A stretch of 44,342 nucleotides of DNA, taken from a virus. Taxonomy: Duplodnaviria; Heunggongvirae; Uroviricota; Caudoviricetes. This document shows positions 1,244 through 44,342 of this stretch, piece by piece; positions within the stretch are counted from its first letter, which is position 1; every line of letters starts with the position of its first letter. Made by a program: the position numbers and the translations under genes. The stretch spans positions 1 through 44,342 of the IMG/VR virus record IMGVR_UViG_2547132254_000004; one strand, 5' to 3'. Below the pieces are notes generated by a model. It worked only from the letters and a program-made list of their open reading frames with translations. It did not search any database and was not told the DNA's origin.

Positions 1244-2677
1244 TCAAGGCTGCCCAGTCTTACCAGCATCAGCAGAAACAGCTTTGAGGATATAGGGTTC
1301 CAGAAGTCTGGCAACGGCTTCAAATACTGGCACCACAACGGAGTTACCGAACTGCCGATATGACTGAGTATCTGAAACCGGAATACGGAATGGTTTCCCT
1401 CCAGGTTTTTCAAACCCCATAAGGCGTGCGCACTCTCGGGGAGTCAGCCTGCGTGGTCGACGAGCCTGGTTACTCTCATTCATAAAGTCAGCCTCTCCCG
1501 TTGCCATATCCCAACCACGATCAATAAGAATTTCTGATCCGTCTTTGTGATATCTGGCAGAAAGTGTGCGTGCAATGCTTTCCTTATTCTCAGGATTGAC
1601 CAACCCAAAGCCAAAACCATTCCCCTTGGCTGCATGCTTTTTGGCGTAGTTATAAAGGTACTCCCATAGTTTTGGCGTAAGTATATATTTACTGTCGACT
1701 ACAGGCTCCAGCAATTCACCAAATGATGGGCGGTGTTCCGGATAAAAACGACTGATATCACGCAAGGTAAACCCCTTGTGAATATTCAGATCTCGTCTAA
1801 ATCCGACCAGAACAATGCGTTCACGATGCTGAGGCAAAAAATGCTTCCCATCGATAATCTTTGGATCGTTTTTTCCCATTTCTGCAGCATCGGCAACTTC
1901 GTAGCCCAGCTCGTCAAGGGTCTCCATAATGACTTTGAAAGTTTTACCCTTATCATGGCTCTTCAGATTTTTGACATTTTCCAGCACAAAAATTGCCGGT
2001 TTTTTTGCTCGTATAATACGTGCCACGTCAAAAAAAAGTGTTCCTTGTGCTTCACATTCAAAACCATGCGCACGACCAAGTGAGTTTTTCTTACTAACAC
2101 CAGCAAGGCTAAATGGCTGGCACGGGAACCCCGCAAGAAGCACATCATGATCCGGCACATGCTCATCAATATATGCATAAGCATCCGTTTCCAATACATC
2201 GGTTTTATCACTCAGCGTGACTTCCCGAATATCGAGATTGAATTTATGCACCTGTTCATCGTTAAACCAGTTGGCCTTGTATGTACGCACAGCATCTTTA
2301 TTCCATTCACTGGTAAAAACACACTGGCCTCCAATGGCCTCAAAACCTTTCCGTATCCCTCCAATTCCAGCAAATAAGTCAATGAAGCGGAAAGCATATT
2401 CCGGATGGTTTGCAGGTGGTTCTGGTAGCATCTTACGCAGAAGAGACTCTTCTACTGAAGTCAACGATTTTGGTAAACACTTGCCATTAATCCAGCGGTT
2501 AATGGTTTCACGGCTCCACTCATTTTTTCCGACTTTTCTCAGTAATTCAGCCACATACTTCTGATCATAGATTTCCAGCACTTTCTCGATAAGCTTTTTA
2601 TCATTTTCCTGTCGCAGCTTTTCTTCCGCCTCGGCTTCCTTCAGCAGATGCTGTGCCAACACTTCAAATTCAGACAT
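1244..2677 (-). CDS. ecoRIIM: DNA-cytosine C5-methyltransferase, M.EcoRII/Dcm family
   Basis: C5-MTase motifs [26 protein letters not shown]. Start placed at ATG 2677 (MSEFE..., 477 aa) preceded by GGAGG; track ORF extends 14 codons further to 2719. Confidence 0.9.
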
Positions 2678-2984
2678 AATTCCTCCAAGGGGTCTAATGG
2701 GTGAAACTTTATCACTCATTCAACCCAGAAGGAAATGTTTTATCTGGATATTTAAACAGTGACTACAACGTAATCTAGCACTGGTGATGCTTTGTTAGGC
2801 ATAGAGAATCATTCTATATACGACTAATGACAGAAAAACAGCAGACAAGTAGTTTGTTCATAAATTAACGCATACTACGTGCCTACGGTTTTCGAGACCG
2901 GTCCAATCATCAAACGAAACATAAAATTAGCTCACATTATGAGGAAAAGTATCTTTTTTGTACTCTGTAAATTCAAAGGCTTAG

Positions 2985-3971
<987 letters not shown>

Positions 3972-4404: not shown

Positions 4405-5470
4405 GTGACGAATGTTTTTGGGAAGAGAATATATACCCTGGATGTTCTGAGAGGATTTGCCGCACTTTCCGTTGTGTTATGGCATTGGCAACATTTTTTT
4501 ATGAAAAAGAATGCTGCATCTGACATAATCATAAACCGCCAACCTTTTTATGAATTTTTTCCGTCTTTTATCATTACGGTTTATATGCTGTCGAATTGTT
4601 TTTTATGATTTCTGGATTCATATTTTTTTATCTATACGCTGACAATATACACAGCAATAAAACCTCAGCAAAAACTTTTATAGTTAACCGTGTCAGTAGA
4701 TTATATCCACTTTATATATTTACATTTGCTGTCGTGGCAATATTACAAATTATTTTCTTTAAAAGTCATAATTATTTTTTGTTTATCCTATGAATGACAT
4801 TTACCATGCCATTCTGAATTTATTGATGATTCAATCATGGGGATTTGAGCGAGGTTGGTCCTTCAACGCCCCGACATGGTCCGTGTCGATTGAAGTACTT
4901 ATGTACATGATATTTTTTATATTATGCAAGTTCACATCAAAAACAACATTCATATCAATTTTAATAGTTGCATTATCGTACTACTTTTTCAAAATTAACA
5001 ATCCCATAATGATCGGCGCATTCTCTTTCTTTATTGGTGGTCTGACTTATAAAATTACGATTGCGGCCATAAAAAATATTAGCGCAAAGTTATTTTTTAT
5101 TTTTGCTTGTGTTTTTCTATTGATCTCATGGGGAGTTATATTTACCCTGCAAGTAGCAGATATATTCTCAATTATCTTATTCGGATTTACCTCCATAATC
5201 TTTTTCCTTGTATCAATTAGCGCAATACGAAACGATTTTGGGAAAAAAATTGAATGGTTGGGCGATATCAGTTATTCATCTTATCTTTTACATTTTCCTT
5301 TGCAAATCATTGTTGTTTATTTAGCTGACAAGATTGGCTATGGACGCGATCTTTTTTACAGCCCCAAGGTATTCATTTTATTCATGCTTACATTAATGGC
5401 AATTAGCTATATGTCATATATATTCATTGAAAAACCATCGCAACAATTCATCCGAGATAAATTTCATTAA
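4405..5470 (+). pseudogene. Acyltransferase family 3 (O-antigen/LPS acetylase-like) gene split over three frames
   Basis: Track ORFs 4405-4608, 4596-4793, 4790-5470 lie in three frames and concatenate to ~358 aa with N-terminal LDVLRGFAALSVVLWH and a WSVSIEV motif; highly hydrophobic; both junctions at T6 runs; GTG start at 4405 preceded by AAGAGG; AT-rich. Confidence 0.6.
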
Positions 5471-32088: not shown

Positions 32089-32549
32089 TCATCACTCGAT
32101 ACAGCGCGCTTGCTGCTTTTCCGTAAACACTGCTCACGACGCGCCAGAAAATTGTTTCGTTCTGGCTGGGAGTGGCTTTCACGGAATGCCGCCATCCACA
32201 CCGTTGCAGCACGACGGTATAAGCCCCTGGACTCCAGTTCTTCAGCCTGGCGGGTCAGGCACAAAATCTCCCGCGGGTCGTTAGTGCCGACATAGAAATT
32301 GCGCACAGGTCTGGTTTCACGAACTGGTTGCGGTTCCGCCTCCTGCGCTCTCTCAGTCAGGCGCGGGAAATGTCTGCGTGTATCCCCTTCACAACGGTGA
32401 GCCACACGCCCACTCTGACGTAACTTGCTTGCTGACTGCAGAACGCGCTGCCGTGAGTAACCTGCAAAAGCATCCGCAATGTCTCCGGAAGTACACCCCG
32501 GATGGGCTTCAATGTATTTCTGAACTTCATTCAAAAGACTCATGATCAC
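32055..32549 (-). CDS. PerC-family-like transcriptional regulator
   Basis: 164 aa; C-terminal LESRGLYRRAATVWMAAF matches the recalled PerC/Pch signature; N-terminal helix-turn-helix-like region. Confidence 0.45.
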   Translation of the reverse strand: MIMSLLNEVQKYIEAHPGCTSGDIADAFAGYSRQRVLQSASKLRQSGRVAHRCEGDTRRHFPRLTERAQEAEPQPVRETRPVRNFYVGTNDPREILCLTRQAEELESRGLYRRAATVWMAAFRESHSQPERNNFLARREQCLRKSSKRAVSSDEWYLSGNYVGA

Positions 32550-33487
32550 CCCCTGAATCCTGCCGGGATCTGGCTGTAGTCCACGTTGTCGTAACTGGCT
32601 TTGAAGTACGGGTCTTCGCGTTTTTCTGTGTACGTGCTGACGGACGGCGATAAGCGCAGGGAAAGCTCATCCCATTTTTCCCGCAGCTTCGACGGGCTGA
32701 GCACGTTACGGCACCAGAACGGATCGCGGCTGACGCGGCTGTACATCTCGCAGATTTGTTTGTGAGTACGACCATCCTGCACACACATCAGGCGAATTTC
32801 GTTTGCCCAGGCTGTCCAGTTCGGTTCTTTGGGACGAACCACCTCGCCGTCACATTCGGCGGCCAGCTCGTACAGGGCGATGATTTTTTTCCAGAGCCAC
32901 TGTGCGCAGGTCAAATCATCCTGCGTTCCCCACTGGCGCTTTTTAGGGCTGAATACAACCGCATCAGGATGGCGAGTTAAAAACTCCTGTTCAGCCGTCT
33001 GCGTGTCCGGTTGCGAAGCGTCCGGACGAGAAGTTTTTTTATCTGACGGATCATGTTTTGATTTTACTGACGGATCCCCGCCAGATTCTGACGGGTGAAA
33101 ACCCGCTTTTTTGCCAGATTTCGACGCATCAAATTTTGACGGGTCAGATTTTGATGCGTCAGATTTTGACGGGTCAGAATCTGACAATTGAGAAAATGCC
33201 GCTGCCTGAAGCTTCGCAACGTTAAGCTGATAAACATTCGACGCATTGCGGTTACCCTGGCGACGCGCCTTACGCGTTAACCAGCCTTCTGCTTCCAGCC
33301 GTGCGATAGCCGTTCTGACGGTACTCATCCCCGCGCCAATCTGACGGGCAATGGTTTCAATTGATGGCCAGCACACACCTTCGTCATTACTGAAATCAGC
33401 CAGGCGGGCCATAATTGCCACGCTGGATAATTTCATGCCTGACGCAGCGCAACCATCCCATACATAGCCGGTTAATTTAGTGCTCAT
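32546..33487 (-). CDS. Replication initiation protein (N-terminal wHTH; contains the iteron array)
   Basis: 313 aa; N-terminal HTH-like SVAIMARLADFSNDEGVCWPSIETIARQIGAGMSTVRTAIARLEAEGWL; internal SKSD peptide repeats coincide with 15-bp DNA repeats. Confidence 0.6.
   Translation of the reverse strand: MSTKLTGYVWDGCAASGMKLSSVAIMARLADFSNDEGVCWPSIETIARQIGAGMSTVRTAIARLEAEGWLTRKARRQGNRNASNVYQLNVAKLQAAAFSQLSDSDPSKSDASKSDPSKFDASKSGKKAGFHPSESGGDPSVKSKHDPSDKKTSRPDASQPDTQTAEQEFLTRHPDAVVFSPKKRQWGTQDDLTCAQWLWKKIIALYELAAECDGEVVRPKEPNWTAWANEIRLMCVQDGRTHKQICEMYSRVSRDPFWCRNVLSPSKLREKWDELSLRLSPSVSTYTEKREDPYFKASYDNVDYSQIPAGFRG
33040..33190. repeat. Iteron-like direct repeats (putative replication origin) inside the initiator gene
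   Basis: About 8 copies of a TCTGACGG(A/G)TC-centred unit; the last five (AGATTTTGACGGGTC / AGATTTTGATGCGTC) are spaced exactly 15 bp apart. Confidence 0.6.
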
Positions 33488-33496
33488 GACCGACCT

Positions 33497-33835
33497 CTAT
33501 TTCCCTGAATTTACGACGAAACTGTTCGAGCGGACTGAAGCATTCATGCTCATAGCCTTCGCGGAGGTAGATAACCCGTTGTGTTTCCGGCTCCCAACGA
33601 ATGACTCTGACGGGTACTCCGTAGTGATCTTTGAACCAGCGGTTAACTTGTCGCAAAGGACTGTCTCCTTTTGCCGGTTAAAATCACCCACAGCCCACTC
33701 TGCAAAGCTGTGGGTTACAATTACCCTGCCACCTGGTACATTTACTGCATAGCAATACTCCACCTTCGCTTTTCCACCCGGTACAGGAAGCGCAATCAGT
33801 TGCGAGCGACGGTAGTGTGTTGTTAAACTGTTCAT
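33497..33835 (-). CDS. Hypothetical protein between the cII-like and replication genes
   Basis: 112-aa track ORF in operon orientation; no recognisable motif. Confidence 0.3.
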
Positions 33836-34383
33836 GCGTTAGTTTCTCCACAGTCACGACACGCCACGGCGCCCGGAGCTGCACACTCGCGGGCGTCATT
33901 ACTTTCTGAAATGCAAAAAATTTTGTAGACCAGTGCTGCATGCTCCTGCAGCTTCGAAATTGAGAGGTACAGCTCGTCGTTAATTGCTGTCTTCTCATGC
34001 GGTTCCACTACACCGTCTTCAATTGCTGAACGAATCTGTTTTGAATAACTGCCGATCTGTTCAATGACCTCCAGCAGGCGTTGGTTGATATCGGCGTTGT
34101 CCACATCCTCGACATCAGGAAGAGACACAAAGACGCCATTTGCAGACTGCGCCACAGCGTCAGCAATGAAGTGAGTTCCACCAGCACGTTGCAAAATCAT
34201 TGCCCATCCCAGCGGGAAAATCTGATCGCCATCGGCACGAAGGCGGTTAAATAATGCGTTCTCTGTTACATCCAGCCAGTCAGCAGCTTCAGCGTACCCC
34301 CCCGGCAACGCTGCGATAGTTTTTCTGACAGCTTTCACGTACCACTCAGGCTGTTTTTCTACTTTCCAGTGATGCTTACCCAC
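33832..34383 (-). CDS. CII-like regulatory protein (CP76-type)
   Basis: 183 aa directly downstream of cro in the rightward operon; family assignment from recollection. Confidence 0.5.
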
Positions 34384-34636
34384 GGTTCACCTCCTGTTCC
34401 TGTGGTTTAAACCCATTCTGGTTTTGGCTAGATTGAAAACGTGCCGGATAAAGAATCTGCATTTCGCTGACTTCACCCTTAAAAAAATTGGCTAAACGTT
34501 CTGCAAGCTCGATAGATGGAATCTGCTCCAGCCTCTCAATACGACTCAACGTCGCTGGATTGACTTGAACACCCGCAGCAACATGCTGCAAAGTGAAACC
34601 ATGCGCCTTACGCACATTTCGTAATGGTGATTGCAT
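34376..34636 (-). CDS. Cro-like HTH (XRE family) repressor
   Basis: 86 aa with HTH HGFTLQHVAAGVQVNPATLSRIE; divergent from cI across an operator-containing spacer. Confidence 0.7.
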   Translation of the reverse strand: MQSPLRNVRKAHGFTLQHVAAGVQVNPATLSRIERLEQIPSIELAERLANFFKGEVSEMQILYPARFQSSQNQNGFKPQEQEVNRG

Positions 34637-34733
34637 ATGCCCTCCAAATATTGCGCGTTATGCATGTTATTTCACGCAATTATTTTGCGCAAGTTGATTT
34701 GCTTATCACGCAATAAAGAAATGTAATAAACGC
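34637..34733. promoter_or_regulatory. Right operator/promoter region with TTGC-N7-GCAA palindromes
   Basis: Palindromic 15-mers TTGCGCGTTATGCAT (34651-34665) and TTGCTTATCACGCAA (34699-34713), plus TTGCGCAA (34685-34692), between divergent cro and cI. Confidence 0.5.
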
Positions 34734-35426
34734 ATGAACATAGGAAACCGAGTCAGACAACTTCGCCAAGCGAAGAACATGAAAATCGCCGATCTCGCTG
34801 AAGCGATAGGAGTAGATGCGGCGAACATCTCGCGCTTAGAAACGGGTAAGCAAAAACAATTTACCGAACAAACACTGAGTAATATTGCCAAGAGCTTAGG
34901 TGTTGATATTGCTGATCTCTTTACCTCTGCCCACAAAAGTAATACTGTATATAAAAACAGTAATAATGAGGATGTTGCGCAGGTGAAGGATGTGTTCCGT
35001 ATTGAAATGCTGGATATCAGTGCCAGTGCGGGAAATGGCCTTATCCAGGGCGGTGATGTCATTGATGTGATTCATGCCATCGAATACAGAACTGATAATG
35101 CTGTATCAATGTTCGGCGGACGACCAGCCAATCACATCAAAGTTATCAACGTTCGTGGGGACAGTATGTGTCCAACCATTGAGCCAGGAGATCTCATCTT
35201 CGTTGATGTCAGCATCAATCAGTTTGATGGTGATGGTATATATGTCTTTGGTTTTGATGACAAAATATACGTTAAAAGACTTCAAATGATTCCTGACAAA
35301 CTGCTGGTGATTTCTGATAACCAGATTTACCGTGAATGGGGAATTACTAGCGAAAACGAACACCGATTCATGGTCTTTGGAAAGGTCTTAATCAGTCAGT
35401 CGCAAACCCTTAAGAGACATAATTAA
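34734..35426 (+). CDS. CI-type prophage repressor (XRE HTH plus S24/LexA-like peptidase domain)
   Basis: 230 aa; N-terminal HTH RVRQLRQAKNMKIADLAEAIGVDAANISRLETGK; C-terminal S24-like region (GDSMCPTIEPGDLIFVD ... VKRL). Confidence 0.85.
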   Translation: MNIGNRVRQLRQAKNMKIADLAEAIGVDAANISRLETGKQKQFTEQTLSNIAKSLGVDIADLFTSAHKSNTVYKNSNNEDVAQVKDVFRIEMLDISASAGNGLIQGGDVIDVIHAIEYRTDNAVSMFGGRPANHIKVINVRGDSMCPTIEPGDLIFVDVSINQFDGDGIYVFGFDDKIYVKRLQMIPDKLLVISDNQIYREWGITSENEHRFMVFGKVLISQSQTLKRHN

Positions 35427-35445
35427 CCTCAATATCCCATCCATC

Positions 35446-35469
35446 GGCCACCGAAAGGTGGCTTTTTAT
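35446..35469 (+). terminator. Rho-independent terminator after cI
   Basis: GCCACC-GAAA-GGTGGC followed by TTTTTATT, 20 nt after the cI stop. Confidence 0.55.
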
Positions 35470-35480
35470 TACCTATAAAT

Positions 35481-35517
35481 TTGCATATCTCGCAAACATC
35501 ACTTGCATATCTCGCAA
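35481..35517. promoter_or_regulatory. Left-operator-like pair of identical palindromes TTGCATATCTCGCAA
   Basis: Two identical copies (35481-35495, 35503-35517), same TTGC-N7-GCAA architecture as the cro/cI sites, upstream of the early-left genes. Confidence 0.45.
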
Positions 35518-35702
35518 TTTAATTTTATCTTTTGTTCCAGACCAACTACAGGATTACAACAAAATCTGGTTGCAACACGGTGCATGTGTCGTAAGCAGTC
35601 AGTAAATGTCAAAAACGAACAGGCAGGACGCCCACGAAGTAGCCGCCGGTGGCGTATGAATGACCGGATGATTCGTTAAATACTATGTGTAAGAGAGCGC
35701 AA

Positions 35703-35906
35703 ATGAACCGTTATTTCACATGCTCGTTTTGTGGCGCAAACGAGCTGCAGGCAAAAAAAATCATCGCCAAAGGCGGAAAAGATGAAGTTGCTATCTGCTC
35801 TGAGTGCGTAGTCTTGTGTGTCGGGGCATTAATCAATAGCAGCACAACTATTCGGTTCACACCAAATGAGAATGCGCCTTTAGATGCGCGGAAATCTGGA
35901 GGTTAA
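35703..35906 (+). CDS. Small ClpX-type C4 zinc-finger-like protein
   Basis: 67 aa from ATG 35703 (MNRYFTCSFCGANELQAKKIIAKGGKDEVAICSECVVLCV...); CSFCG...ICSECV spacing resembles the ClpX N-terminal zinc-binding domain; AAGAGAG RBS. Confidence 0.45.
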   Translation: MNRYFTCSFCGANELQAKKIIAKGGKDEVAICSECVVLCVGALINSSTTIRFTPNENAPLDARKSGG

Positions 35907-35914
35907 AGAACAAA

Positions 35915-36190
35915 ATGAAAGTCCAGATTTTAAACAATAGTGGTGAAGTCGTTTGGTCATACGACATAGCCGCTCCTGTAGATCAGAGCGGCGATAGCTG
36001 GACCAATGGGAAACATCAGATTATGGCTGGAGTTGTATTCTCTTTACGCCGTGCTTTGGAACAGGCTGAAGTCTTTCCATCAGACCCTGAATGGAAATGG
36101 CCTTTTTCTATTTGTCCAAATTCGGAGAGTACATTTCAGAAAATTGGTCAGAAAGTCGCACTCGAAGAGCATCAGCCAACTGTTTCCTGA
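35915..36190 (+). CDS. Hypothetical early-left protein
   Basis: 91-aa ATG ORF; 3' end overlaps a convergent minus-strand ORF, so one of the two may be spurious. Confidence 0.3.
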   Translation: MKVQILNNSGEVVWSYDIAAPVDQSGDSWTNGKHQIMAGVVFSLRRALEQAEVFPSDPEWKWPFSICPNSESTFQKIGQKVALEEHQPTVS

Positions 36191-36353
36191 TTTTTTCAGG
36201 TAACTCGTCGGCATCGCAGAAACAACAACGCTCGATCATGTTGAAAGCCGATTCGTAGAACTGTTTCTGCTGAGTGTCGCTGAGACAGGAAAAGAGCGAC
36301 GTTACGATGATTTTATTAATTGCATTATCAAGTTCTTTTTCATCAAAAGTCAT
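36108..36353 (-). CDS. Hypothetical small acidic protein, antisense to the early-left operon
   Basis: 81 aa with ATG start and AAGGA RBS; helical/acidic composition. Confidence 0.35.
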   Translation of the reverse strand: MTFDEKELDNAINKIIVTSLFSCLSDTQQKQFYESAFNMIERCCFCDADELPEKIRKQLADALRVRLSDQFSEMYSPNLDK

Positions 36354-36790
36354 TTGATTTTCCTTTTATGTATACGGGCTTAAAAGGATACCACCGAGCC
36401 TGAAGTGGTGAAAAGACAGGCACATAACAGCTAAGTATTTTCAACCAGAGAGAATCCTTAGCGTTGTGGTGAATGCGGCTCAGCGCACGCGGGTTAAGGT
36501 TGAGGCTGACAGTCGACCTTCTGTGGATACCCACCCGCCTGGTGTGCAACCTTCGCCAGGCACCGGGAGGCACCCGGCACCACAACTTTATGCTGTGTGT
36601 AGTCCTGGCGGTACCAGTTTGTACCCTTGCTTCCGGCTGGTACCGCTCTTTTTACAAAACAGAGAAGAGCATCACCGGACGACGGGCTCATAACCCAATC
36701 CATCCGGGCGGCTGCCACCGCAGGTGTTCTTCTCTGTTTTGTGGAGAAACTAATCGGCCTTGCAGGGTCGATATGATGAGGAGCAGCAAA

Positions 36791-37153
36791 ATGGCTAGCG
36801 AACGCAGTACTGATGTGCAGGCATTTATCGGGGAGCTGGACGGCGGCGTATTTGAAACCAAAATCGGCGCAGTTCTCAGTGAAGTCGCTTCCGGTGTGAT
36901 GAACACGAAAACCAAAGGGAAGGTCTCACTCAATCTGGAAATCGAACCGTTTGATGAGAACCGTGTGAAAATCAAACACAAACTCTCATATGTTCGCCCG
37001 ACTAACCGCGGGAAAATTTCCGAAGAAGACACCACCGAAACGCCGATGTATGTCAATCGCGGTGGTCGCCTGACTATTCTGCAGGAAGACCAGGGACAAT
37101 TACTGACTCTTGCCGGTGAACCTGACGGAAAACTCCGCGCAGCAGGTCGTTAA
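36791..37153 (+). CDS. yfdP: YfdP-like prophage protein
   Basis: 120 aa from ATG 36791 (MASERSTDVQAF...) with GAGGAG RBS; size and position before the yfdQ-like gene match CPS-53 as I recall it; the longer track ORF from 36473 is judged an artefact. Confidence 0.5.
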   Translation: MASERSTDVQAFIGELDGGVFETKIGAVLSEVASGVMNTKTKGKVSLNLEIEPFDENRVKIKHKLSYVRPTNRGKISEEDTTETPMYVNRGGRLTILQEDQGQLLTLAGEPDGKLRAAGR

Positions 37154-37218
37154 TATCGTTCTTAATAAACTGATTATTTATCTCATCACTGAATATCTTT
37201 ATATAGTGAGGACTTATT

Positions 37219-38043
37219 ATGTCTCAGAACTTAGACGCAACCGCAATTAATCAAATCCATGCCCTTATTTCTGCTCAGGGTGTTAATGAAATTATCAGTA
37301 AGATTGGTGCCGATGCTGTGGCATTGCCTGAGAATTACCGCATTCATGATCTGGAAAAATTTAATTTAAATCGTTTCCGTTTCCGTGGTGCGCTTTCCAC
37401 TGCCAGCATCGATGACTTTACCCGTTATTCTAAAGATCTTGCAGATGAAGGCACCCGCTGCTTTATCGATGCCGATAATATGCGTGCCGTCAGTGTGCTT
37501 AACCTGGGTACTATTGATGAGCCAGGTCACGCAGATAACACTGCCACTCTCAAACTGAAAAAGACAGCACCGTTCTCTGCTCTGTTGTCTGTTAACGGCG
37601 AGCGTAACTCCCAGAAGTCACTGGCAGAATGGATCGAAGACTGGGCCGACTACCTTGTGGGCTTTGATGCTAATGGTGATGCCATTCAGGCAACAAAAGC
37701 GGCTGCGGCAGTCCGTAAAATCACGATTGAAGCAAACCAGACTGCTGATTTTGAAGATAATGACTTCAGCGGCAAACGCTCCCTGATGGAGTCTGTCGAA
37801 GCGAAGACCAAAGACATTATGCCAGTGGCATTTGAGTTTAAATGCGTTCCGTTTGAAGGTCTGAAAGAACGTCCGTTTAAATTACGCCTCAGCATTATCA
37901 CTGGCGATCGTCCGGTACTGGTTCTGCGCATTATTCAGCTGGAAGCGGTGCAGGAAGATATGGCTAACGAATTTCGTGATCTGCTTGTTGAGAAATTCAA
38001 GGACAGCAAAGTAGAAACCTTTATTGGGACTTTCACCGCCTGA
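37219..38043 (+). CDS. yfdQ: YfdQ-like prophage protein (DUF2303-type)
   Basis: 274 aa with GAGGA RBS; length and N-terminus match my recollection of CPS-53 YfdQ. Confidence 0.55.
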
Positions 38044-38334
38044 TTTCATTACTGCAAATGCCCCTGCGGGGGCATTTATGGAAACGTAATTGACTCAATA
38101 ATCGCCTGAAGGCGAGGGTTTTCTTTAACCAAAATTCAGCGCGGTGCAGCGCATATAACGTGGAGAACAAAATGTCATTTATTAAAACTTTTTCCGGGAA
38201 GCATTTTTATTATGACAGGATAAATAAAGACAACATCGATATTAACGATATCGCGGTTTCCCTTTCAAATATCTGTCGCTTTGCCGGCCATCTTTCACAC
38301 TTCTACAGCGTCGCCCAACATGCGGTGCTTTGCA

Positions 38335-39663
38335 CTGATGAATCCCCTAATGATTTTGGTAAAAATCATTAAGTTAAGGTGGATACACATCTTGTCATAT
38401 GATCAAATGGTTTCGCGAAAAATCAATAATCAGACAACAAGATGTGCGAACTCGATATTTTACACGACTCTCTTTACCAATTCTGCCCCGAATTACACTT
38501 AAAACGACTCAACAGCTTAACGTTGGCTTGCCACGCATTACTTGACTGTAAAACTCTCACTCTTACCGAACTTGGCCGTAACCTGCCAACCAAAGCGAGA
38601 ACAAAACATAACATCAAACGAATCGACCGATTGTTAGGTAATCGTCACCTCCACAAAGAGCGACTCGCTGTATACCGTTGGCATGCTAGCTTTATCTGTT
38701 CGGGCAATACGATGCCCATTGTACTTGTTGACTGGTCTGATATTCGTGAGCAAAAACGACTTATGGTATTGCGAGCTTCAGTCGCACTACACGGTCGTTC
38801 TGTTACTCTTTATGAGAAAGCGTTCCCGCTTTCAGAGCAATGTTCAAAGAAAGCTCATGACCAATTTCTAGCCGACCTTGCGAGCATTCTACCGAGTAAC
38901 ACCACACCGCTCATTGTCAGTGATGCTGGCTTTAAAGTGCCATGGTATAAATCCGTTGAGAAGCTGGGTTGGTACTGGTTAAGTCGAGTAAGAGGAAAAG
39001 TACAATATGCAGACCTAGGAGCGGAAAACTGGAAACCTATCAGCAACTTACATGATATGTCATCTAGTCACTCAAAGACTTTAGGCTATAAGAGGCTGAC
39101 TAAAAGCAATCCAATCTCATGCCAAATTCTATTGTATAAATCTCGCTCTAAAGGCCGAAAAAATCAGCGCTCGACACGGACTCATTGTCACCACCCGTCA
39201 CCTAAAATCTACTCAGCGTCGGCAAAGGAGCCATGGGTTCTAGCAACTAACTTACCTGTTGAAATTCGAACACCCAAACAACTTGTTAATATCTATTCGA
39301 AGCGAATGCAGATTGAAGAAACCTTCCGAGACTTGAAAAGTCCTGCCTACGGACTAGGCCTACGCCATAGCCGAACGAGCAGCTCAGAGCGTTTTGATAT
39401 CATGCTGCTAATCGCCCTGATGCTTCAACTAACATGTTGGCTTGCGGGCGTTCATGCTCAGAAACAAGGTTGGGACAAGCACTTCCAGGCTAACACAGTC
39501 AGAAATCGAAACGTACTCTCAACAGTTCGCTTAGGCATGGAAGTTTTGCGGCATTCTGGCTACACAATAACAAGGGAAGACTTACTCGTGGCTGCAACCC
39601 TACTAGCTCAAAATTTATTCACACATGGTTACGCTTTGGGGAAATTATGAGGGGATCTCTCAG
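38335..39663 (+). mobile_element. IS10 (IS4 family), 1329 bp, flanked by 9-bp target duplication TGCTTTGCA
   Basis: Ends CTGATGAATCCCCTAATGATTTTGG... and ...GGGGATCTCTCAG match IS10 termini; identical TGCTTTGCA at 38326-38334 and 39664-39672. Confidence 0.95.
38442..39650 (+). CDS. IS10 transposase
   Basis: 402 aa (MCELDILHDSLYQFCPELHLKRLNSLTLACHALLDCKTLTL...) matching the IS10/Tn10 transposase. Confidence 0.95.
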   Translation: MCELDILHDSLYQFCPELHLKRLNSLTLACHALLDCKTLTLTELGRNLPTKARTKHNIKRIDRLLGNRHLHKERLAVYRWHASFICSGNTMPIVLVDWSDIREQKRLMVLRASVALHGRSVTLYEKAFPLSEQCSKKAHDQFLADLASILPSNTTPLIVSDAGFKVPWYKSVEKLGWYWLSRVRGKVQYADLGAENWKPISNLHDMSSSHSKTLGYKRLTKSNPISCQILLYKSRSKGRKNQRSTRTHCHHPSPKIYSASAKEPWVLATNLPVEIRTPKQLVNIYSKRMQIEETFRDLKSPAYGLGLRHSRTSSSERFDIMLLIALMLQLTCWLAGVHAQKQGWDKHFQANTVRNRNVLSTVRLGMEVLRHSGYTITREDLLVAATLLAQNLFTHGYALGKL

Positions 39664-40036
39664 TGCTTTGCAGCCAGCTGGTACCGCAGGAATTTGCTTT
39701 TGAAGCGTTAATGCATGATGCAACAGAAGCGTATTGCCAGGACATCCCGGCTCCACTGAAACGCCTTCTTCCTGACTATAAACGGATGGAAGAAAAAATA
39801 GACGCCGTAATCCGTGAGAAATACGGGTTACCCCCGGTTATGAGTACACCCGTGAAATATGCCGATCTCATCATGCTGGCAACCGAACGCCGCGATCTCG
39901 GGCTTGATGATGGCTCTTTCTGGCCTGTGCTGGAAGGTATCCCGGCAACAGAGATGTTCAACGTGATTCCACTGGCTCCAGGCCATGCCTACGGGATGTT
40001 TATGGAACGCTTTAACGAATTATCGGAGTTACGCAA

Positions 40037-40399
40037 ATGCGCATAAATGTTTTCGAAATGGAAGGGTTTCTTCGCGGGAAATGTGTACCGCAAGATCTGA
40101 AAGTGAACGAAACAAATGCTGAGTACCTGGTACGTAAATTCGACGCGCTTGAAGCTAAATGTGCGGCACTGGAAAGCAAAATAATACCAGTGTCAGCTGA
40201 ACTGCCACCAGCAAATGAAAGTGTTCTGTTATTTGATGCTAACGGAGAAGGCTGGCTGATTGGCTGGCGTTCTCTCTGGTACACCTGGGGACAAAAAGAA
40301 ACCGGAGAATGGCAGTGGACATTTCAGGTCGGGGACCTTGAAAACGTCAATATCACTCACTGGGCAGTAATGCCGAAAGCACCAGAGACTAAGAAATGA
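40037..40399 (+). CDS. yfdS: YfdS-like prophage protein
   Basis: 120 aa with ATG start and GGAG RBS, immediately after the yfdR-like gene. Confidence 0.45.
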   Translation: MRINVFEMEGFLRGKCVPQDLKVNETNAEYLVRKFDALEAKCAALESKIIPVSAELPPANESVLLFDANGEGWLIGWRSLWYTWGQKETGEWQWTFQVGDLENVNITHWAVMPKAPETKK

Positions 40400-40611
40400 G
40401 CGTGATAAAAACTCATACAGGAATTGTTATCACCCGAGACGGTGAAAAGCGGATGAAATTACATTCCACTGAAACGTCCTGGGTTGCCGGACGTTGTGAA
40501 TCCTACGACAAAAAGACTGGTTACCGTTGGGGGGCACCTAACATGCGTCGCCGTCTGCTACTGGACAGCATCAGGCCAATAAAACAGGTAGCAACCAGGG
40601 AACAAAATTAA
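40396..40611 (+). CDS. Small hypothetical protein (YfdT-position)
   Basis: 71 aa overlapping the upstream stop by 4 nt. Confidence 0.35.
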   Translation: MSVIKTHTGIVITRDGEKRMKLHSTETSWVAGRCESYDKKTGYRWGAPNMRRRLLLDSIRPIKQVATREQN

Positions 40612-40658
40612 TTATCAGGACTGGAATTTGATATTACTGCCCGTGTGCAGCGGGCTAA

Positions 40659-40877
40659 GTGGAGAAACATATGCTGAACCTCGATTGTGTTCCAATCTCA
40701 ACTTATTGCAAAGAAACTGGCGAAACTCCTGAAGCAATAAACAAACGTGTACAGCGCGGTGTTTGGCGTGAAGGTGTTCAGGTTTTAAAGGTTGAAGGCG
40801 TTAAGGAGAGGTGGATTGATCTTAGTGAGGTTGCAAAATGGGCCAGACAAAACTGCTCAAACTACCGCGCGGCGTAA
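40659..40877 (+). CDS. Excisionase-like protein
   Basis: 72 aa immediately upstream of and overlapping the integrase start. Confidence 0.5.
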   Translation: MEKHMLNLDCVPISTYCKETGETPEAINKRVQRGVWREGVQVLKVEGVKERWIDLSEVAKWARQNCSNYRAA

Positions 40878-42010
40878 CAATCAGGAAACACCGCCTGGGC
40901 GAAACGATCAATATAACTTTCACCTATAAAGGAGTTAAATGTCGTGAGCCTCTTTCCAATCTGGAAGTAATACCAAAGAACATAAAATACGCCGAGCGCA
41001 CACTCGGCGAAATTCATAATAAGATCGAAAGGGGAACATTCATTTATGCGGAATATTTTCCCCGTTCTGCTCGTTTGAAAATTTTTGGTAATGCTGCTGC
41101 AGGCAAAACGGTAAAAATGTACCTGGACGAATACCTTGAAATCTGCGAAACGAGAAAACTTTCACCCTCTACGATTGGTGGTTATAAAAAATGCCGTAGT
41201 GCGTTAGCCTCACTCCACATTTGCCCTGCAAGTGAATTAACACCAGCAATCCTGAAAGCGTGGATTCAAAGCCAGAAAACGACCTTAAAAACAATTCGCA
41301 ACCAGTTATCTTTCCTGCGGTCAGCACTTGATGAAGCCGTAACCGATGGGGTACTTCAAATTAACCCCGTATCGTTGGTAACTGCTTCGCGCTACCAAAG
41401 TGATAAGTCAGAAGCAGAAAGCAGCTACGTGGTTGATCCGCTATCACCAGCAGAAGTTGATGCATTACTAGCAGCAGCCGGAAACAAACAATGGGAAAAT
41501 CTGTTCCGGTTCGCTATACATACAGGCCTGCGTAGTTCTGAATTATGTGCCCTTCGATGGCGTGATATCGACTTTGTTGGAAAAACTGCCCATGTCCAGA
41601 GCGCAAGTGTTGTCGGTGTTATCAAAGGGACAAAGACAAAAGCAGGTACTCGGAAAGTTGAACTGACAGAAGAGGCAATGTTGGCGCTGATAAATCAGAA
41701 GCCATTTACATTCATGAAGGATGCTACTGTCTTTGAAGATCCAAAGACCAATAAGCCTTGGGCAAGTGCTGATGCAATTAGGAAAAAAGCATGGGTGCCA
41801 ACATTGCGAAAAGCAGGTATTCGTTACAGAAACCCATATCAAACCAGGCATACATTCGCCACCAGCCATATCAGCCGAGGAGCAAACCTGTTTTGGCTTG
41901 CAGCTCAAATGGGGCATAAAGGGCCGGAGATGCTTTTCAGGCACTATGGTTCGTATCTTAAAGAGTATGATAACTTTACATCGATAAATCATTTGCATAA
42001 TCATAATTAA
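40838..42010 (+). CDS. Tyrosine integrase (lambda Int family) of the lambdoid prophage
   Basis: 390 aa with ATG start; C-terminal catalytic region with RHTFATSHISRGANLFWLAAQMGHK...LFRHY; reads toward the ssrA-derived attachment core. Confidence 0.85.
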   Translation: MGQTKLLKLPRGVTIRKHRLGETINITFTYKGVKCREPLSNLEVIPKNIKYAERTLGEIHNKIERGTFIYAEYFPRSARLKIFGNAAAGKTVKMYLDEYLEICETRKLSPSTIGGYKKCRSALASLHICPASELTPAILKAWIQSQKTTLKTIRNQLSFLRSALDEAVTDGVLQINPVSLVTASRYQSDKSEAESSYVVDPLSPAEVDALLAAAGNKQWENLFRFAIHTGLRSSELCALRWRDIDFVGKTAHVQSASVVGVIKGTKTKAGTRKVELTEEAMLALINQKPFTFMKDATVFEDPKTNKPWASADAIRKKAWVPTLRKAGIRYRNPYQTRHTFATSHISRGANLFWLAAQMGHKGPEMLFRHYGSYLKEYDNFTSINHLHNHN

Positions 42011-42020
42011 TATTTAATAA

Positions 42021-42047
42021 TCCCCGCATTTTTAAAATCGGGGATTT
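42021..42047 (+). terminator. Hairpin after the integrase gene (weak terminator)
   Basis: TCCCCG-N12-CGGGGA followed by TTT. Confidence 0.35.
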
Positions 42048-42051
42048 AAAG

Positions 42052-42348
42052 TTGATTACAATTACATTCGACAAACTAATCACCTACATATCTTCAGTTG
42101 GTACTTTCATTTCAGCAATTGCTGCATTATATGCAATATGGTTAACGATATTTCAAAGAAGGCTCTCTTATAAACCCAATTTAGTGATAGACACTTTAAA
42201 TGTCAAGATGAATGTTAACGATTTCAACGGTTTTCATGTTGATATCTTACAAGCCCCTACGCTTCCACAAACAAAATTTTCAAACATAGGATTGGGGGCG
42301 GCAATTTCACTTAGATATCATTGGGATTTTAATTATAAAAAAACATAA
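42052..42348 (+). CDS. Hypothetical membrane protein (AT-rich cargo between int and att), possible 5' part of a frameshifted gene
   Basis: 98 aa from TTG; N-terminal TM helix YISSVGTFISAIAALYAIWLTIF; ends at an A7 run. Confidence 0.4.
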   Translation: MITITFDKLITYISSVGTFISAIAALYAIWLTIFQRRLSYKPNLVIDTLNVKMNVNDFNGFHVDILQAPTLPQTKFSNIGLGAAISLRYHWDFNYKKT

Positions 42349-42362
42349 ATCTATACTTAGAG

Positions 42363-42830
42363 TTGTTTTCGAAAAAATTCAAAAAAGAAGATAAATCTTT
42401 TACAACCGACTCCCAGTATGGAATGTTCAAAATAATAAAAGAAAGAAAAGTATATATGTACAATACTTTATCGACACCTTACGATATTGATTTTTCGTTA
42501 CCATATAGTATAGATAAGAAGTCAAAAAACATTTTTGTACCAACCGCGGCAATTGATATTCTATTGAATATAGCATATCTTTCACATAGACTTAAATTAG
42601 TCGGTTCTTCATCATTCACTGGTCCAAAATTAATTATTGAATATCAAGATATAGAGGGTAAAACTAAAAAAGTCACTTGGCAAACAAAATTGGAACGTGG
42701 AGTGGCACGTTTCAGTGGTGATAATATGGAGGCAGATTTTGCACTACGGTTTACACCTGTACCAGAGAAATGGACTACAAAAGGTCTAGAGAAGATACGC
42801 AAAAGCGCCGCAAACGCCATGTTCAGATAA
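42363..42830 (+). CDS. Hypothetical protein, possible 3' part of the same frameshifted gene
   Basis: 155 aa from TTG; frame is open from 42339; one extra A in the A7 run at 42337-42343 would fuse it to the upstream ORF. Confidence 0.4.
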   Translation: MFSKKFKKEDKSFTTDSQYGMFKIIKERKVYMYNTLSTPYDIDFSLPYSIDKKSKNIFVPTAAIDILLNIAYLSHRLKLVGSSSFTGPKLIIEYQDIEGKTKKVTWQTKLERGVARFSGDNMEADFALRFTPVPEKWTTKGLEKIRKSAANAMFR

Positions 42831-42867
42831 ATATATAATTAAAACAACAGGTTAATATTTTTCAGAC

Positions 42868-42895
42868 ACGGGTTCAACTCCCGCCAGCTCCACCA
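42868..42895 (+). other. ssrA: Prophage attachment core: 3'-terminal ~28 nt of ssrA (tmRNA) ending CCA
   Basis: ACGGGTTCAACTCCCGCCAGCTCCACCA matches the E. coli tmRNA 3' end as I recall it; sequence to the left is phage cargo, not the tmRNA body. Confidence 0.65.
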
Positions 42896-42942
42896 AAATT
42901 CTCCATCGGTGATTACCAGAGTCATCCGATGAAGTCCTAAGA

Positions 42943-42975
42943 GCCCGCACGGCGCAAGCCCTGCGGGCTTTTTTG
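42943..42975 (+). terminator. Rho-independent terminator (native ssrA terminator)
   Basis: GCCCGCA-N12-TGCGGGC followed by TTTTTT. Confidence 0.6.
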
Positions 42976-43028
42976 TGCCCTCAATTTGTCCCGCGAAGTC
43001 CGAAGAAAACTAATTAAATCCGATCCTT

Positions 43029-43082
43029 TTAGGCACCTTGTTAGGCACCTCATAAAGCTTTATTGTTTTTTGAGGTGCCTAA
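43029..43082. repeat. Three copies of TTAGGCACC (two direct, one inverted) upstream of the intA-like gene
   Basis: 43029-43037, 43041-43049 direct; 43074-43082 inverted (GGTGCCTAA); possible integrase arm-type or regulator binding sites. Confidence 0.4.
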
Positions 43083-43100
43083 AACTATGGAAACCCGGCA

Positions 43101-44342
43101 ATGGCAAGACAAACCAAACCTCTATCCGTTAAAGAAATAGAATCAGCCAAACCCAAGGAGGCGGACTACGTTCTCTATGATGGCGATGGCCTTGAGCTAC
43201 TCATTAAATCCAGCGGGAGTAAAATCTGGCAGTTTCGCTACATTCGCCCTGTCACCAAGAAACGAGCAAAGAAGAGCATAGGCTCCTACCCGTCAGTTAC
43301 CCTTGCCGATGCCAGAAACTACCGTGCAGAGTCCCGCTCACTACTGGCTAAACAGATCGATCCGCAGGAACATCAGCAAGAACAATTGCGCAGTTCGCTG
43401 GAAGCCAAAACCAACACTTTCCAACTCGTAGCTGAACGTTGGTGGAATGTGAAGAAAGCCAGTGTGACAGAGGACTATGCGGAAGATATCTGGCGCTCTC
43501 TTGAAAGAGACGTCTTTCCTGCGATTGGCGACGTTAGCGTTACAGATATTAAAGCTCATACACTGGTTCAGGCCGTACAACCGGTTCAGGCCAGAGGAGC
43601 ACTGGAAACTGTTCGTCGCCTGTGCCAACGTATTAATGAGGTCATGATCTATGCCCAGAACACAGGGCTGATTGATGCTGTTCCCAGCGTTAATATCGGT
43701 AAAGCCTTCGAGAAGCCTCAGAAAAAGAACATGCCCAGCATTCGACCGGATCAGCTACCTCAGTTAATGCAGACGATGCGAACAGCCAGCATTAGCCTTT
43801 CCACACGCTGCCTGTTCATGTGGCAACTTCTTACTATTACCCGCCCTGCCGAAGCGGCTGAAGCTCTCTGGGAAGAGGTAGACATAGAAGCGCGAGAGTG
43901 GAAGATTCCTGCAGCACGCATGAAAATGAACCGCGACCATACTGTTCCATTGTCAGATGAAGCAATTGCGATACTAGAGATGATGAAGCCGTTAAGTGGA
44001 AATCGAGAATTTATCTTTCCCAGCCGCATCAAGCCAAACCAGCCGATGAACAGTCAGACCGTAAACGCATCGCTAAAACGCGCAGGTTTTGGTGGGGTGC
44101 TCGTTTCACACGGCCTGCGATCTATCGCCAGTACAGCCCTTAATGAGCAGGGATTTCCACCTGATGTTATTGAGGCTGCACTTGCTCATGTGGATAAGAA
44201 TGAGGTTCGTCGTGCGTATAACCGTAGTGATTATCTTGAGCAGCGACGGCCTATGATGCAGTGGTGGGCTGATTTTGTGATGGCTGCAGATCACGGTAGT
44301 ATGATTGAAGGAGGGATAAAGGCAATGCGGTTAGTTGGATGA
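43101..44342 (+). CDS. intA: P4-family tyrosine integrase, CP4-57 IntA-like
   Basis: 413 aa (MARQTKPL...LYDGDGLELLIKSSGSKIWQFRY...), same length and position relative to ssrA as E. coli K-12 IntA; catalytic HGLRSIASTALNEQG...AHVDKNEVRRAYNRSDY. Confidence 0.85.
   Translation: MARQTKPLSVKEIESAKPKEADYVLYDGDGLELLIKSSGSKIWQFRYIRPVTKKRAKKSIGSYPSVTLADARNYRAESRSLLAKQIDPQEHQQEQLRSSLEAKTNTFQLVAERWWNVKKASVTEDYAEDIWRSLERDVFPAIGDVSVTDIKAHTLVQAVQPVQARGALETVRRLCQRINEVMIYAQNTGLIDAVPSVNIGKAFEKPQKKNMPSIRPDQLPQLMQTMRTASISLSTRCLFMWQLLTITRPAEAAEALWEEVDIEAREWKIPAARMKMNRDHTVPLSDEAIAILEMMKPLSGNREFIFPSRIKPNQPMNSQTVNASLKRAGFGGVLVSHGLRSIASTALNEQGFPPDVIEAALAHVDKNEVRRAYNRSDYLEQRRPMMQWWADFVMAADHGSMIEGGIKAMRLVG

What the first reader, a model, noticed from the sequence alone, without database searches (positions are those of the whole stretch)
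38326..39672. IS10 insertion with 9-bp target duplication inactivating the yfdR-like HD-domain gene
A complete 1329-bp IS10 with intact transposase is flanked by identical TGCTTTGCA copies (close to the IS10 hotspot consensus), so the insertion is recent and unrearranged. It splits the HD-domain gene in frame, inactivating it and possibly exerting polar or promoter effects on the downstream yfdS-like, xis and int genes. IS10 here also hints at Tn10 elsewhere in the genome.
Basis: seen in the sequence. Interest (0 to 1): 0.5.

Follow-up and report, generated by a model that had tools for sequence, protein, structure and literature searches.

The report
IS10-Right insertion splitting prophage gene yfdR
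A complete copy of the common jumping gene IS10 has landed cleanly inside the prophage gene yfdR and broken it; this is an ordinary, well-understood event, with the small extra that the same 9-base spot has been hit separately in several other E. coli prophages.

Summary
Window 38335-39663 is a complete 1329-bp IS10, flanked by two identical TGCTTTGCA copies (38326-38334 and 39664-39672).

- **Identity of the element.** It is IS10-Right type. It differs from the IS10-Right of Tn10 on plasmid R100 by 1 silent base, and from IS10-Left by 16 nt and 4 aa. It has an intact 402-aa DDE transposase and a full RNA-OUT antisense gene.
- **Effect on yfdR.** Removing the IS and one repeat restores a 178-aa YfdR that is 174/178 identical to E. 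coli K-12 YfdR. The restored region is collinear with IS-free prophages. The break falls between His51 and the H68-D69 dyad of the HD motif, so the gene is inactivated.
"In frame" is only arithmetic, because a stop follows 12 IS-encoded codons. The strong outward promoter pOUT faces away from yfdS/xis/int; only the weak pIII/OUTIIp promoters face them. Polarity is plausible but untested. The Tn10 hint is weak.
- **Extra finding.** IS10 abuts this same 9-mer in four different yfdR allele and prophage backgrounds, once in inverted orientation. This suggests a natural IS10 hot spot.

The event is ordinary and the interest is low.

The parts
38326..38334 (.). Left copy of the 9-bp target-site duplication, TGCTTTGCA
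   Evidence: It is identical to the right copy, and these are the only two occurrences in the window.
38335..39663 (+). Complete IS10-Right-type insertion sequence (1329 bp). The outside end is on the left and the inside end on the right.
   Evidence: One search gives the length and termini. One search shows 100% identity to many E. coli copies. One search shows 1 silent nt difference from R100 Tn10 IS10-Right, against 16 nt and 4 aa from IS10-Left.
38335..38357 (+). Outside-end terminal inverted repeat (IS10 nt 1-23)
   Evidence: 17 of 23 positions match the reverse complement of the inside end. The function of the ends comes from established IS10 biology.
38380..38449 (-). RNA-OUT antisense RNA gene. 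It is transcribed from pOUT leftward, toward and across the outside end.
   Evidence: Rfam RF00240, 98.8 bits against a gathering score of 41, E=1.4e-19, full model 1-70.
38442..39650 (+). IS10 transposase gene (402 aa, intact). The ATG is at IS nt 108. A Dam GATC lies in the pIN -10 region at 38401-38404.
   Evidence: One search lists the ORF. One search gives Pfam DDE_Tnp_1 (87.3 bits). One search gives NCBIfam transpos_IS4_2 (404 bits against a cut-off of 152). One search shows 0 aa differences from the R100 IS10-Right transposase. One search confirms the GATC.
39641..39663 (-). Inside-end terminal inverted repeat, with a Dam GATC at 39654-39657
39664..39672 (.). Right copy of the 9-bp target-site duplication, TGCTTTGCA
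38172..38372 (+). yfdR 5' fragment. It encodes 54 YfdR residues including His51, then 12 IS-encoded residues and a stop, giving a 66-aa ORF.
   Evidence: The same 66-aa ORF is called in other assemblies.
39663..40049 (+). yfdR 3' fragment. This is a 127-aa ORF from a GTG formed by the last IS base plus TG of the duplication. It contains the H68-D69 dyad but lacks His51.
   Evidence: The restored gene (38172-38334 + 39673-40049) encodes 178 aa, 174/178 identical to K-12 YfdR.
37219..38043 (+). yfdQ (DUF2303), the upstream gene of the yfdQRS module
   Evidence: One search gives Pfam DUF2303 (310 bits). One search shows 272/274 identity to K-12 YfdQ.
40037..40399 (+). yfdS-like gene (DUF551). Its start overlaps the end of yfdR by 13 nt.
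   Evidence: One search shows 114/120 identity to K-12 YfdS. One search gives phrog_583. One search gives DUF551 at threshold.
40659..40877 (+). Excisionase (xis)
   Evidence: phrog_2917 excisionase, full length, E=1.6e-45.
40838..42010 (+). Prophage tyrosine integrase (390 aa)
   Evidence: One search gives Arm-DNA-bind_2 plus Phage_integrase. One search gives phrog_1.

Best explanation
A single, complete, transposition-competent IS10-Right element moved by the standard IS10 cut-and-paste pathway. In that pathway the DDE transposase makes 9-bp staggered target cuts, and repair of the gaps creates the TGCTTTGCA duplication. The element landed in codons 52-54 of yfdR, in the early-left (cI-side) operon of an otherwise apparently complete SfII/SfIV-like prophage. 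The insertion separates the first metal-binding His of the HD motif (His51) from the H68-D69 dyad, and it terminates the upstream reading frame after 12 IS-encoded codons. No full-length YfdR can therefore be made. In K-12, YfdR is a weak 5'-nucleotidase-type HD protein that binds DnaA. The site is a natural IS10 hot spot: IS10 ends abut the same 9-mer in four different yfdR alleles and prophages, once in inverted orientation. Shown here: the identity, completeness and orientation of the IS, the duplication, the precise empty site, the gene disruption, and the recurrence. Inferred from established IS10 biology: the transposition mechanism, Rho-type polarity on yfdS/xis/int, strong leftward pOUT transcription that is antisense to the yfdR 5' fragment and yfdQ, and at most weak rightward read-out from pIII/OUTIIp.
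For: The termini, the 1329-bp length and the identical 9-mers are shown. The element is 100% identical to many E. coli IS10 copies. It differs from R100 Tn10 IS10-Right by 1 silent nt and 0 aa, against 16 nt and 4 aa from IS10-Left. The transposase matches DDE_Tnp_1 and NCBIfam IS4, and RNA-OUT is found full-length. The empty site is collinear with T43, whose YfdR differs by 1 aa, and is 100% identical over 540 bp to IS-free alleles. The restored YfdR is 174/178 identical to K-12 YfdR, matches phrog_318 over its full length, and places the HD motif on either side of the break. On recurrence: isolate 2-101 has an identical IS at the same site, TSD and orientation, with flank SNPs at -23 and +13 from the IS ends and a different downstream gene. 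Its own empty allele exists IS-free at 100% identity and differs from the window allele at 30 of 540 positions. GCA_002517005.1 and GCA_012904145.2 supply a third haplotype. GCA_003549065.1 has the IS10 outside end abutting the same 9-mer in inverted orientation. The four right flanks differ pairwise at 11-21 of 386 positions.
Against: Nothing contradicts the basic reading. Several limits remain. No expression data exist, so polarity on xis/int and any residual activity of the 127-aa C-terminal fragment are untested. The hot-spot inference rests on 4 backgrounds, and only 1 of about 2950 yfdR-bearing complete genomes carries the insertion. It is therefore recurrent but rare, and I cannot separate target preference from selection for yfdR loss. 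The site is a 5/6 match to the classical core, while 4 perfect sites exist in the same window. An identical GCTTTGC core 49 bp upstream in yfdR was not used in any locus seen, so sequence outside the core must contribute.
Confidence: 0.96

Rival explanations
1. The insertion happened only once and was then spread among different prophages by homologous recombination between yfdR alleles. On this view the site is not a recurrent hot spot.
For: The IS copies in the window and in isolate 2-101 are identical at 1329 of 1329 positions and share orientation and TSD. Prophages of this group are mosaic and recombine often, as the different downstream modules show.
Against: Flank SNPs lie within 23 bp on the left and 13 bp on the right of the IS in 2-101. 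Each reconstructed empty allele is 100% identical over 540 bp to IS-free alleles elsewhere, while the two alleles differ at 30 of 540 positions. Four right-flank haplotypes exist. One copy is in the opposite orientation, which recombination of a shared tract cannot produce. IS10 identity is uninformative because most E. coli copies are identical.
Confidence: 0.06
2. The insertion is adaptive rather than neutral. Loss of YfdR, a DnaA-binding inhibitor of replication initiation, or IS10 polarity on xis/int that locks the prophage in, would be selected. That selection would explain why yfdR is repeatedly found disrupted.
For: K-12 YfdR binds DnaA, and an oversupply of yfdQRS/T inhibits initiation (PMC4776307). 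yfdR is also broken in other ways in other assemblies: an IS5-like insertion, a Q50 nonsense codon, and indels. The IS lies upstream of xis and int in the same transcription direction.
Against: The set of disrupted alleles was ascertained by searching for the truncated product, so it says nothing about frequency. About 2950 complete genomes keep a yfdR homologue and only one has this insertion. Deletion of yfdQRST had no effect on initiation or HU resistance in K-12 (abstract). Exact reuse of one 9-mer is what IS10 target preference predicts, whereas selection alone would scatter the insertions.
Confidence: 0.1
3. The element is one arm or a remnant of a composite Tn10 rather than a solo IS, or it is an assembly artefact.
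For: IS10 is best known as the arms of Tn10. 837 of 5426 complete E. coli genomes carry the tet(B) core.
Against: The window has only one outside end and one inside end, and no tet genes. A perfect 9-bp duplication directly flanks the single IS, and the empty site is collinear. The same junctions occur in an independent assembly on a 2.07-Mb contig.
Confidence: 0.01

Closest known systems
IS10-Right of transposon Tn10 (IS4 family; PGAP label 'ISVsa5 family')
   Same: The length is 1329 bp with the same outside and inside ends. The 402-aa transposase is identical in protein sequence to the tetD-side IS10 of R100 Tn10. RNA-OUT, Dam GATC sites at pIN and at the inside end, and a 9-bp target duplication are all present.
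   Different: It is a solo copy and not part of Tn10. One silent base (IS nt 203) differs from the R100 copy. The labelling of the tetD-side copy as 'Right' rests on my recollection of the published Tn10 map.
IS10-Left of Tn10
   Same: It has the same length and architecture.
   Different: It differs at 16 nt, including 3 in the outside-end region at nt 24-27, and at 4 aa (V266I, L381S, A389T, A398V). The window element is therefore not the IS10-Left variant.
E. coli K-12 yfdQ-yfdR-yfdS module of cryptic prophage CPS-53 (YfdR is an HD-domain protein that binds DnaA)
   Same: The restored YfdR is 174/178 identical, YfdQ 272/274 and YfdS 114/120. The gene order is the same, and the same TGCTTTGCA is present in K-12 yfdR. 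The function is described in PMC4776307.
   Different: Here the module sits in an apparently complete SfII/SfIV-like prophage with a different xis and int; the excisionase is unrelated to TorI (12 of 72 residues identical). In addition, yfdR is interrupted.
Classical Tn10/IS10 insertion hot spots (consensus NGCTNAGCN; relaxed NRCNNNGYN)
   Same: One exact 9-mer is reused in independent events and in both orientations. The site fits the relaxed consensus fully and the classical core at 5 of 6 positions.
   Different: It is not a perfect classical site, and the mismatch is at an inner position of the half-site. In the paper library searched, no paper mentions both IS10 and yfdR.

Membership tests
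IS10 (IS4 family insertion sequence) | Length of about 1329 bp with the specific IS10 outside and inside terminal sequences (imperfect terminal inverted repeats of about 23 bp) | tested here: met
   The element is 1329 bp. Its ends are identical to those of R100 Tn10 IS10-Right, and 17 of 23 terminal positions are complementary.
IS10 (IS4 family insertion sequence) | A single long ORF encoding a DDE transposase of 402 aa | tested here: met
   The ORF is intact, matches DDE_Tnp_1 and NCBIfam transpos_IS4_2 above their cut-offs, and has 0 aa differences from the R100 IS10-Right transposase.
IS10 (IS4 family insertion sequence) | A 9-bp direct target-site duplication | tested here: met
   TGCTTTGCA is present twice, and it is single-copy at the empty site in T43 and in IS-free alleles.
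IS10 (IS4 family insertion sequence) | RNA-OUT antisense RNA overlapping the transposase start near the outside end | tested here: met
   Rfam RF00240 scores 98.8 bits over the full-length model, covering the tnp ATG at 38442.
IS10 (IS4 family insertion sequence) | Dam (GATC) sites in the pIN -10 region and in the inside end | tested here: met
   GATC is present at 38401-38404 and at 39654-39657. Their regulatory role comes from established knowledge.
IS10 (IS4 family insertion sequence) | Actual transposition activity | not testable with these tools
   Activity is inferred only from protein identity to IS10-Right and from intact ends.
IS10-Right as opposed to IS10-Left | The sequence matches the tetD-proximal copy of Tn10 rather than the jemA/gltS-proximal copy | tested here: met
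   There is 1 nt difference from the tetD-side copy against 16 nt from the gltS-side copy. Which side is called 'Right' is from memory of the published Tn10 map.
YfdR-type HD-domain phosphohydrolase (for the interrupted gene) | Close full-length similarity to characterised K-12 YfdR | tested here: met
   One search shows 174/178 identity after removal of the IS and one TSD. One search shows a full-length match to phrog_318. One search shows 1 aa difference from WP_000008210.1, which is annotated as a 5'-deoxynucleotidase.
YfdR-type HD-domain phosphohydrolase (for the interrupted gene) | H...HD...D metal-binding motif | tested here: met
   VAQH51 and H68-D69 align with the conserved positions of PDB 2gz4. 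The insertion lies between them.
YfdR-type HD-domain phosphohydrolase (for the interrupted gene) | Match to the curated YfbR-like or 5'-deoxynucleotidase models above threshold | tested here: not met
   One search gives Pfam PF12917 at 24.4 bits against a gathering score of 25.9. One search gives NCBIfam NF003009 at 19.9 bits against 122. YfdR is a relative of YfbR but not a member of the YfbR equivalog.
YfdR-type HD-domain phosphohydrolase (for the interrupted gene) | DnaA binding or nucleotidase activity | not testable with these tools
   This is known only for K-12 YfdR (PMC4776307).

The most novel reading that the evidence does not exclude
Codons 52-54 of yfdR (TGCTTTGCA) are a natural, previously unrecorded IS10 hot spot that has been hit independently, in both orientations, in diverse E. 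coli prophages. The recurrent loss of this DnaA-binding prophage protein, together with IS10 polarity on the downstream xis-int genes, would be selected because it detoxifies the prophage or locks it in.
Probability: 0.1. Interest if true: 0.35.

Novelty: already known. Interest (0 to 1): 0.15.

Why it matters
The main value is for annotation. yfdR in this prophage should be called a pseudogene interrupted by IS10-Right. The element marks an active IS10 lineage in the strain. The downstream yfdS-xis-int genes may be under-expressed on induction. The recurrent use of one 9-mer in a gene present in about half of complete E. coli genomes is a small, practical addition. It gives a natural hot-spot sequence for studying IS10 target choice beyond the GCTNAGC core. 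It also warns that identical IS junctions in different strains need not mean common descent.

Tried and rejected
(1) I suspected that the 402-aa ORF at window 1-1209 was a second IS10 transposase, which would have implied a composite element. It is unrelated and is an EcoRII-type endonuclease.

(2) An exact-junction scan of GTDB species representatives found nothing, so it gave no information on source or recurrence. Exact-protein look-ups of the two fragment ORFs worked instead.

(3) I tried to read the OUTIIp paper (PMC150136), but it is not held. The position and direction of pIII/OUTIIp therefore rest on a secondary citation.

(4) The curated HD-family models (Pfam YfbR-like, NCBIfam 5'-deoxynucleotidase) are below threshold for the restored protein. 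Identity to K-12 YfdR was established directly instead.

(5) The consensus promoter scan found fewer sigma-70-like sites than the shuffles (7 against 11.3) and none facing right out of the IS. It neither supports nor excludes outward promoters.

(6) Most loci returned for the 127-aa fragment ORF carry no IS10 at this site. They have other upstream lesions in yfdR and were not counted as hot-spot hits.

(7) Composite Tn10 and assembly artefact were rejected, as set out under rival explanations.

Full report
**1. Observation**

The sequence shows TGCTTTGCA at 38326-38334 and again at 39664-39672, and nowhere else in the window. The 1329 bp between the two copies (38335-39663) begin with CTGATGAATCCCCTAATGATTTTGG and end with TTATGAGGGGATCTCTCAG. 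Read as inverted repeats, the two termini match at 17 of the first 23 positions. One long ORF at 38442-39650 on the + strand encodes 402 aa.

**2. What the element is**

- The 1329 bp are 100% identical over their full length to many E. coli copies that PGAP annotates as 'IS4-like element ISVsa5 family transposase'. 1175 of 5426 complete genomes hold a copy covering at least 80% of the query.
- To label the element properly I fetched Tn10 from plasmid R100 and compared its two arms. The tetC/tetD-side arm differs from the window element at one silent base and at 0 aa. The gltS(jemA)-side arm differs at 16 nt and 4 aa. By the published Tn10 map, which I am recalling from memory, the tetD-side arm is IS10-Right, the active arm. 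The window element is therefore IS10-Right type.
- The transposase matches Pfam DDE_Tnp_1 and the NCBIfam IS4 equivalog at 404 bits against a cut-off of 152.
- Rfam finds a full-length RNA-OUT (RF00240, 98.8 bits) on the minus strand at 38449->38380, overlapping the transposase ATG.
- The two Dam GATC sites known from IS10 biology are present, in the pIN -10 region (38401-38404) and in the inside end (39654-39657).
- The window has no second IS10 end. The other 402-aa ORF, at 1-1209, is an EcoRII-type endonuclease and not a transposase.

**3. What it interrupts**

- Deleting the IS and one 9-mer gives an uninterrupted 178-aa ORF. It is 174/178 identical to E. coli K-12 YfdR. The neighbouring genes are 272/274 identical to YfdQ and 114/120 identical to YfdS.
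- The restored protein matches the phage family phrog_318 over its full length. It differs by one residue from the intact YfdR of strain T43.
- The reconstructed empty site is collinear with T43 over 4 kb (98.65%, one gap), and the two flank alignments overlap by the duplicated bases. It is also 100% identical over 540 bp to IS-free alleles in three complete genomes. This is a simple insertion with no associated rearrangement.
- Alignment to PDB 2gz4 places the break after Cys54. That is between the conserved VAQH (His51) and the H68-D69 dyad of the HD motif.
- The upstream frame runs 12 codons into the IS and then stops, giving a 66-aa product. The downstream part is an ORF of 127 aa from a GTG made of the last IS base plus TG of the duplication. 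Neither fragment has the whole motif.
- The phrase 'in frame' is correct only in that 1338 is divisible by 3.

**4. Context**

- The window is most of an SfII/SfIV-like prophage with myovirus-type tail genes and lambdoid-type early genes. The contiguous virion ORFs, the lysis genes and the Q antiterminator appear intact.
- yfdR lies on the + strand downstream of the cI-like repressor (34734-35426), in the order yfdP, yfdQ, yfdR::IS10, yfdS-like, a 71-aa ORF, excisionase (phrog_2917) and integrase.
- K-12 YfdR is reported to bind DnaA domain I, and in multicopy with its neighbours it inhibits replication initiation. Deletion of the genes has no initiation phenotype. [quoted passage not shown]

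**5. Likely consequences (inferred, not shown)**

- RNA-OUT fixes the direction of pOUT as leftward, out across the outside end. That direction is antisense to the yfdR 5' fragment and yfdQ, and it points away from yfdS/xis/int.
- A secondary source places the weak promoters pIII and OUTIIp at about IS10 nt 1000-1230, reading out across the inside end, which is rightward here. The primary paper could not be read. Weak promoter effects on the downstream genes are therefore possible, but not through pOUT.
- Polarity of a 1.3-kb, poorly translated insert on transcripts coming from the early-left promoter is expected from established IS10/Tn10 genetics. It might lower xis/int expression on induction. 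Nothing here tests this.
- The yfdS start overlaps the yfdR stop by 13 nt, so loss of upstream translation could also reduce yfdS translation. This too is inference.
- The consensus scan is uninformative.

**6. Target site and recurrence**

- TGCTTTGCA matches the classical NGCTNAGCN at 5 of 6 core positions and fits the relaxed NRCNNNGYN consensus completely. Both consensus sequences are as quoted in PMC4574204.
- Before the insertion, the window held 4 perfect and 190 five-of-six core sites. One of the latter is an identical GCTTTGC 49 bp upstream in yfdR itself.
- Despite that, IS10 abuts this very 9-mer in other genomes, in three further backgrounds:
  - (a) Isolate 2-101 (NZ_CP053785.1) has an identical IS in the same orientation with the same TSD. 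Its flanks carry SNPs 23 bp to the left and 13 bp to the right of the IS ends. It has a different downstream gene (PAPS reductase family) and a different integrase, next to tRNA-Thr. Its own reconstructed allele occurs IS-free at 100% identity in at least 8 genomes and differs from the window allele at 30 of 540 positions.
  - (b) GCA_002517005.1 supplies both junctions (on two contigs), and GCA_012904145.2 the left junction only. They form a third haplotype with a 387-aa integrase.
  - (c) GCA_003549065.1 has the IS10 outside end abutting the right-hand side of the 9-mer, which is the opposite orientation. There the IS is truncated to 79 nt.
- The four right flanks differ pairwise at 11-21 of 386 positions. 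Independent hits at a hot spot explain this best. Spread of a single event by recombination would need crossovers within about 20 bp of the IS, and it cannot explain the inverted copy.
- The event is nevertheless rare. Only 1 of about 2950 yfdR-bearing complete genomes has it.
- No paper in the searchable library mentions both IS10 and yfdR.

**7. Source and the Tn10 hint**

- NCBI assembly GCA_000194295.2 (contig AEZP02000004.1, 2.07 Mb) matches window 32172-44342 with no mismatch and a single 1-bp homopolymer difference. It is the same strain or a sister strain.
- Among complete E. coli genomes, 837 carry the Tn10 tetR-tetA(B) core against 1175 with a full-length IS10. At least 29% of IS10 carriers therefore have no Tn10. 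The hint is reasonable but weak, and it cannot be tested inside this window.

**8. Verdict**

It is an ordinary insertion of a very well-known element into an accessory prophage gene. The only new element is the modest evidence that this 9-mer in yfdR is a natural IS10 hot spot. Interest is low, at 0.15.

Noticed in passing
window 1-1209 (+) and 1244-2719 (-): An EcoRII-type restriction endonuclease (Pfam EcoRII-N plus EcoRII-C) lies convergent with a C5 cytosine methyltransferase. This is a type II restriction-modification cargo module at the left end of the prophage. The same module is present in related prophages and in the 43.7-kb circular records.
   Followed up: partly
window 42344 (within 42052-42830): The only difference between the window and assembly GCA_000194295.2 over 12.2 kb is an A7 run here against A8 there. 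It splits a 259-aa hypothetical gene next to int into two ORFs (98 and 155 aa) in the window. It could be a sequencing error at a homopolymer or a real slippage frameshift.
   Followed up: partly
L013 (GCA_003549065.1, PCMT01000013.1) 2923-3001: At the same yfdR 9-mer there is an inverted IS10 of which only nt 1-79 remain. It is joined directly to host molybdopterin-oxidoreductase and nitrate-reductase-type genes, and the yfdR 5' part is absent within 3 kb. The rearrangement that truncated IS10 at an internal position is unexplained.
   Followed up: partly
L011, L014, L015, L016, L017, L018 (loci): yfdR is damaged in other ways in other assemblies. L011 has an IS5-like element (326-aa DDE transposase) inserted near gene nt 71-77. 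L016 loses similarity at nearly the same place (nt 73). L015 has a Q50 nonsense codon. L014, L017 and L018 have indels. These loci were ascertained by searching for the truncated product, so no frequency can be inferred.
   Followed up: partly
window 39649-39665: The right junction creates a GTG start from the last IS base plus TG of the duplication. It lies 13 nt after the transposase stop codon and is preceded by GAGGGG from the IS inside end. A 127-aa YfdR C-terminal fragment could therefore be translated at low level from IS-derived transcripts. Several gene callers do call this ORF.
   Followed up: no
window 38278-38284: A second identical GCTTTGC core lies 49 bp upstream of the used target within yfdR. 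It is not used in any of the IS10-bearing loci seen, so sequence context outside the 7-bp core must decide the choice.
   Followed up: no
window 43101-44342 (+): A second tyrosine integrase of 413 aa (Arm-DNA-bind_3, Phage_int_M and Phage_integrase domains) lies about 1.1 kb beyond the prophage integrase. This suggests that a second integrative element sits in tandem at the prophage's right end. There is no tRNA gene in the window.
   Followed up: no
L009 (NZ_CP081794.1, 43,671 bp, 'plasmid unnamed3' of strain CT01); also NZ_CP081704.1: Close relatives of this prophage (97.9% over 24 kb of the virion and R-M modules) are deposited as stand-alone circular records. They carry a dusA gene fragment next to the integrase and are probably excised or replicating phage genomes rather than plasmids. 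They have a different early-left module with no yfdR.
   Followed up: partly
window 4790-5470 (+): This acyltransferase-family ORF (Acyl_transf_3) of 226 aa matches only profile positions 105-320 of 326. The relative in L009 is 306 aa, so the window copy looks N-terminally truncated. It may be a decayed O-antigen-modification cargo gene.
   Followed up: no
window 38102-38128 (+): A terminator-like hairpin with a T-run (TCGCCTGAAGGCGA GGGTTTTCTT) lies between yfdQ and yfdR, and a second GC-rich hairpin lies at about 38062-38085. Transcription entering yfdR from upstream may therefore already be attenuated.
   Followed up: no
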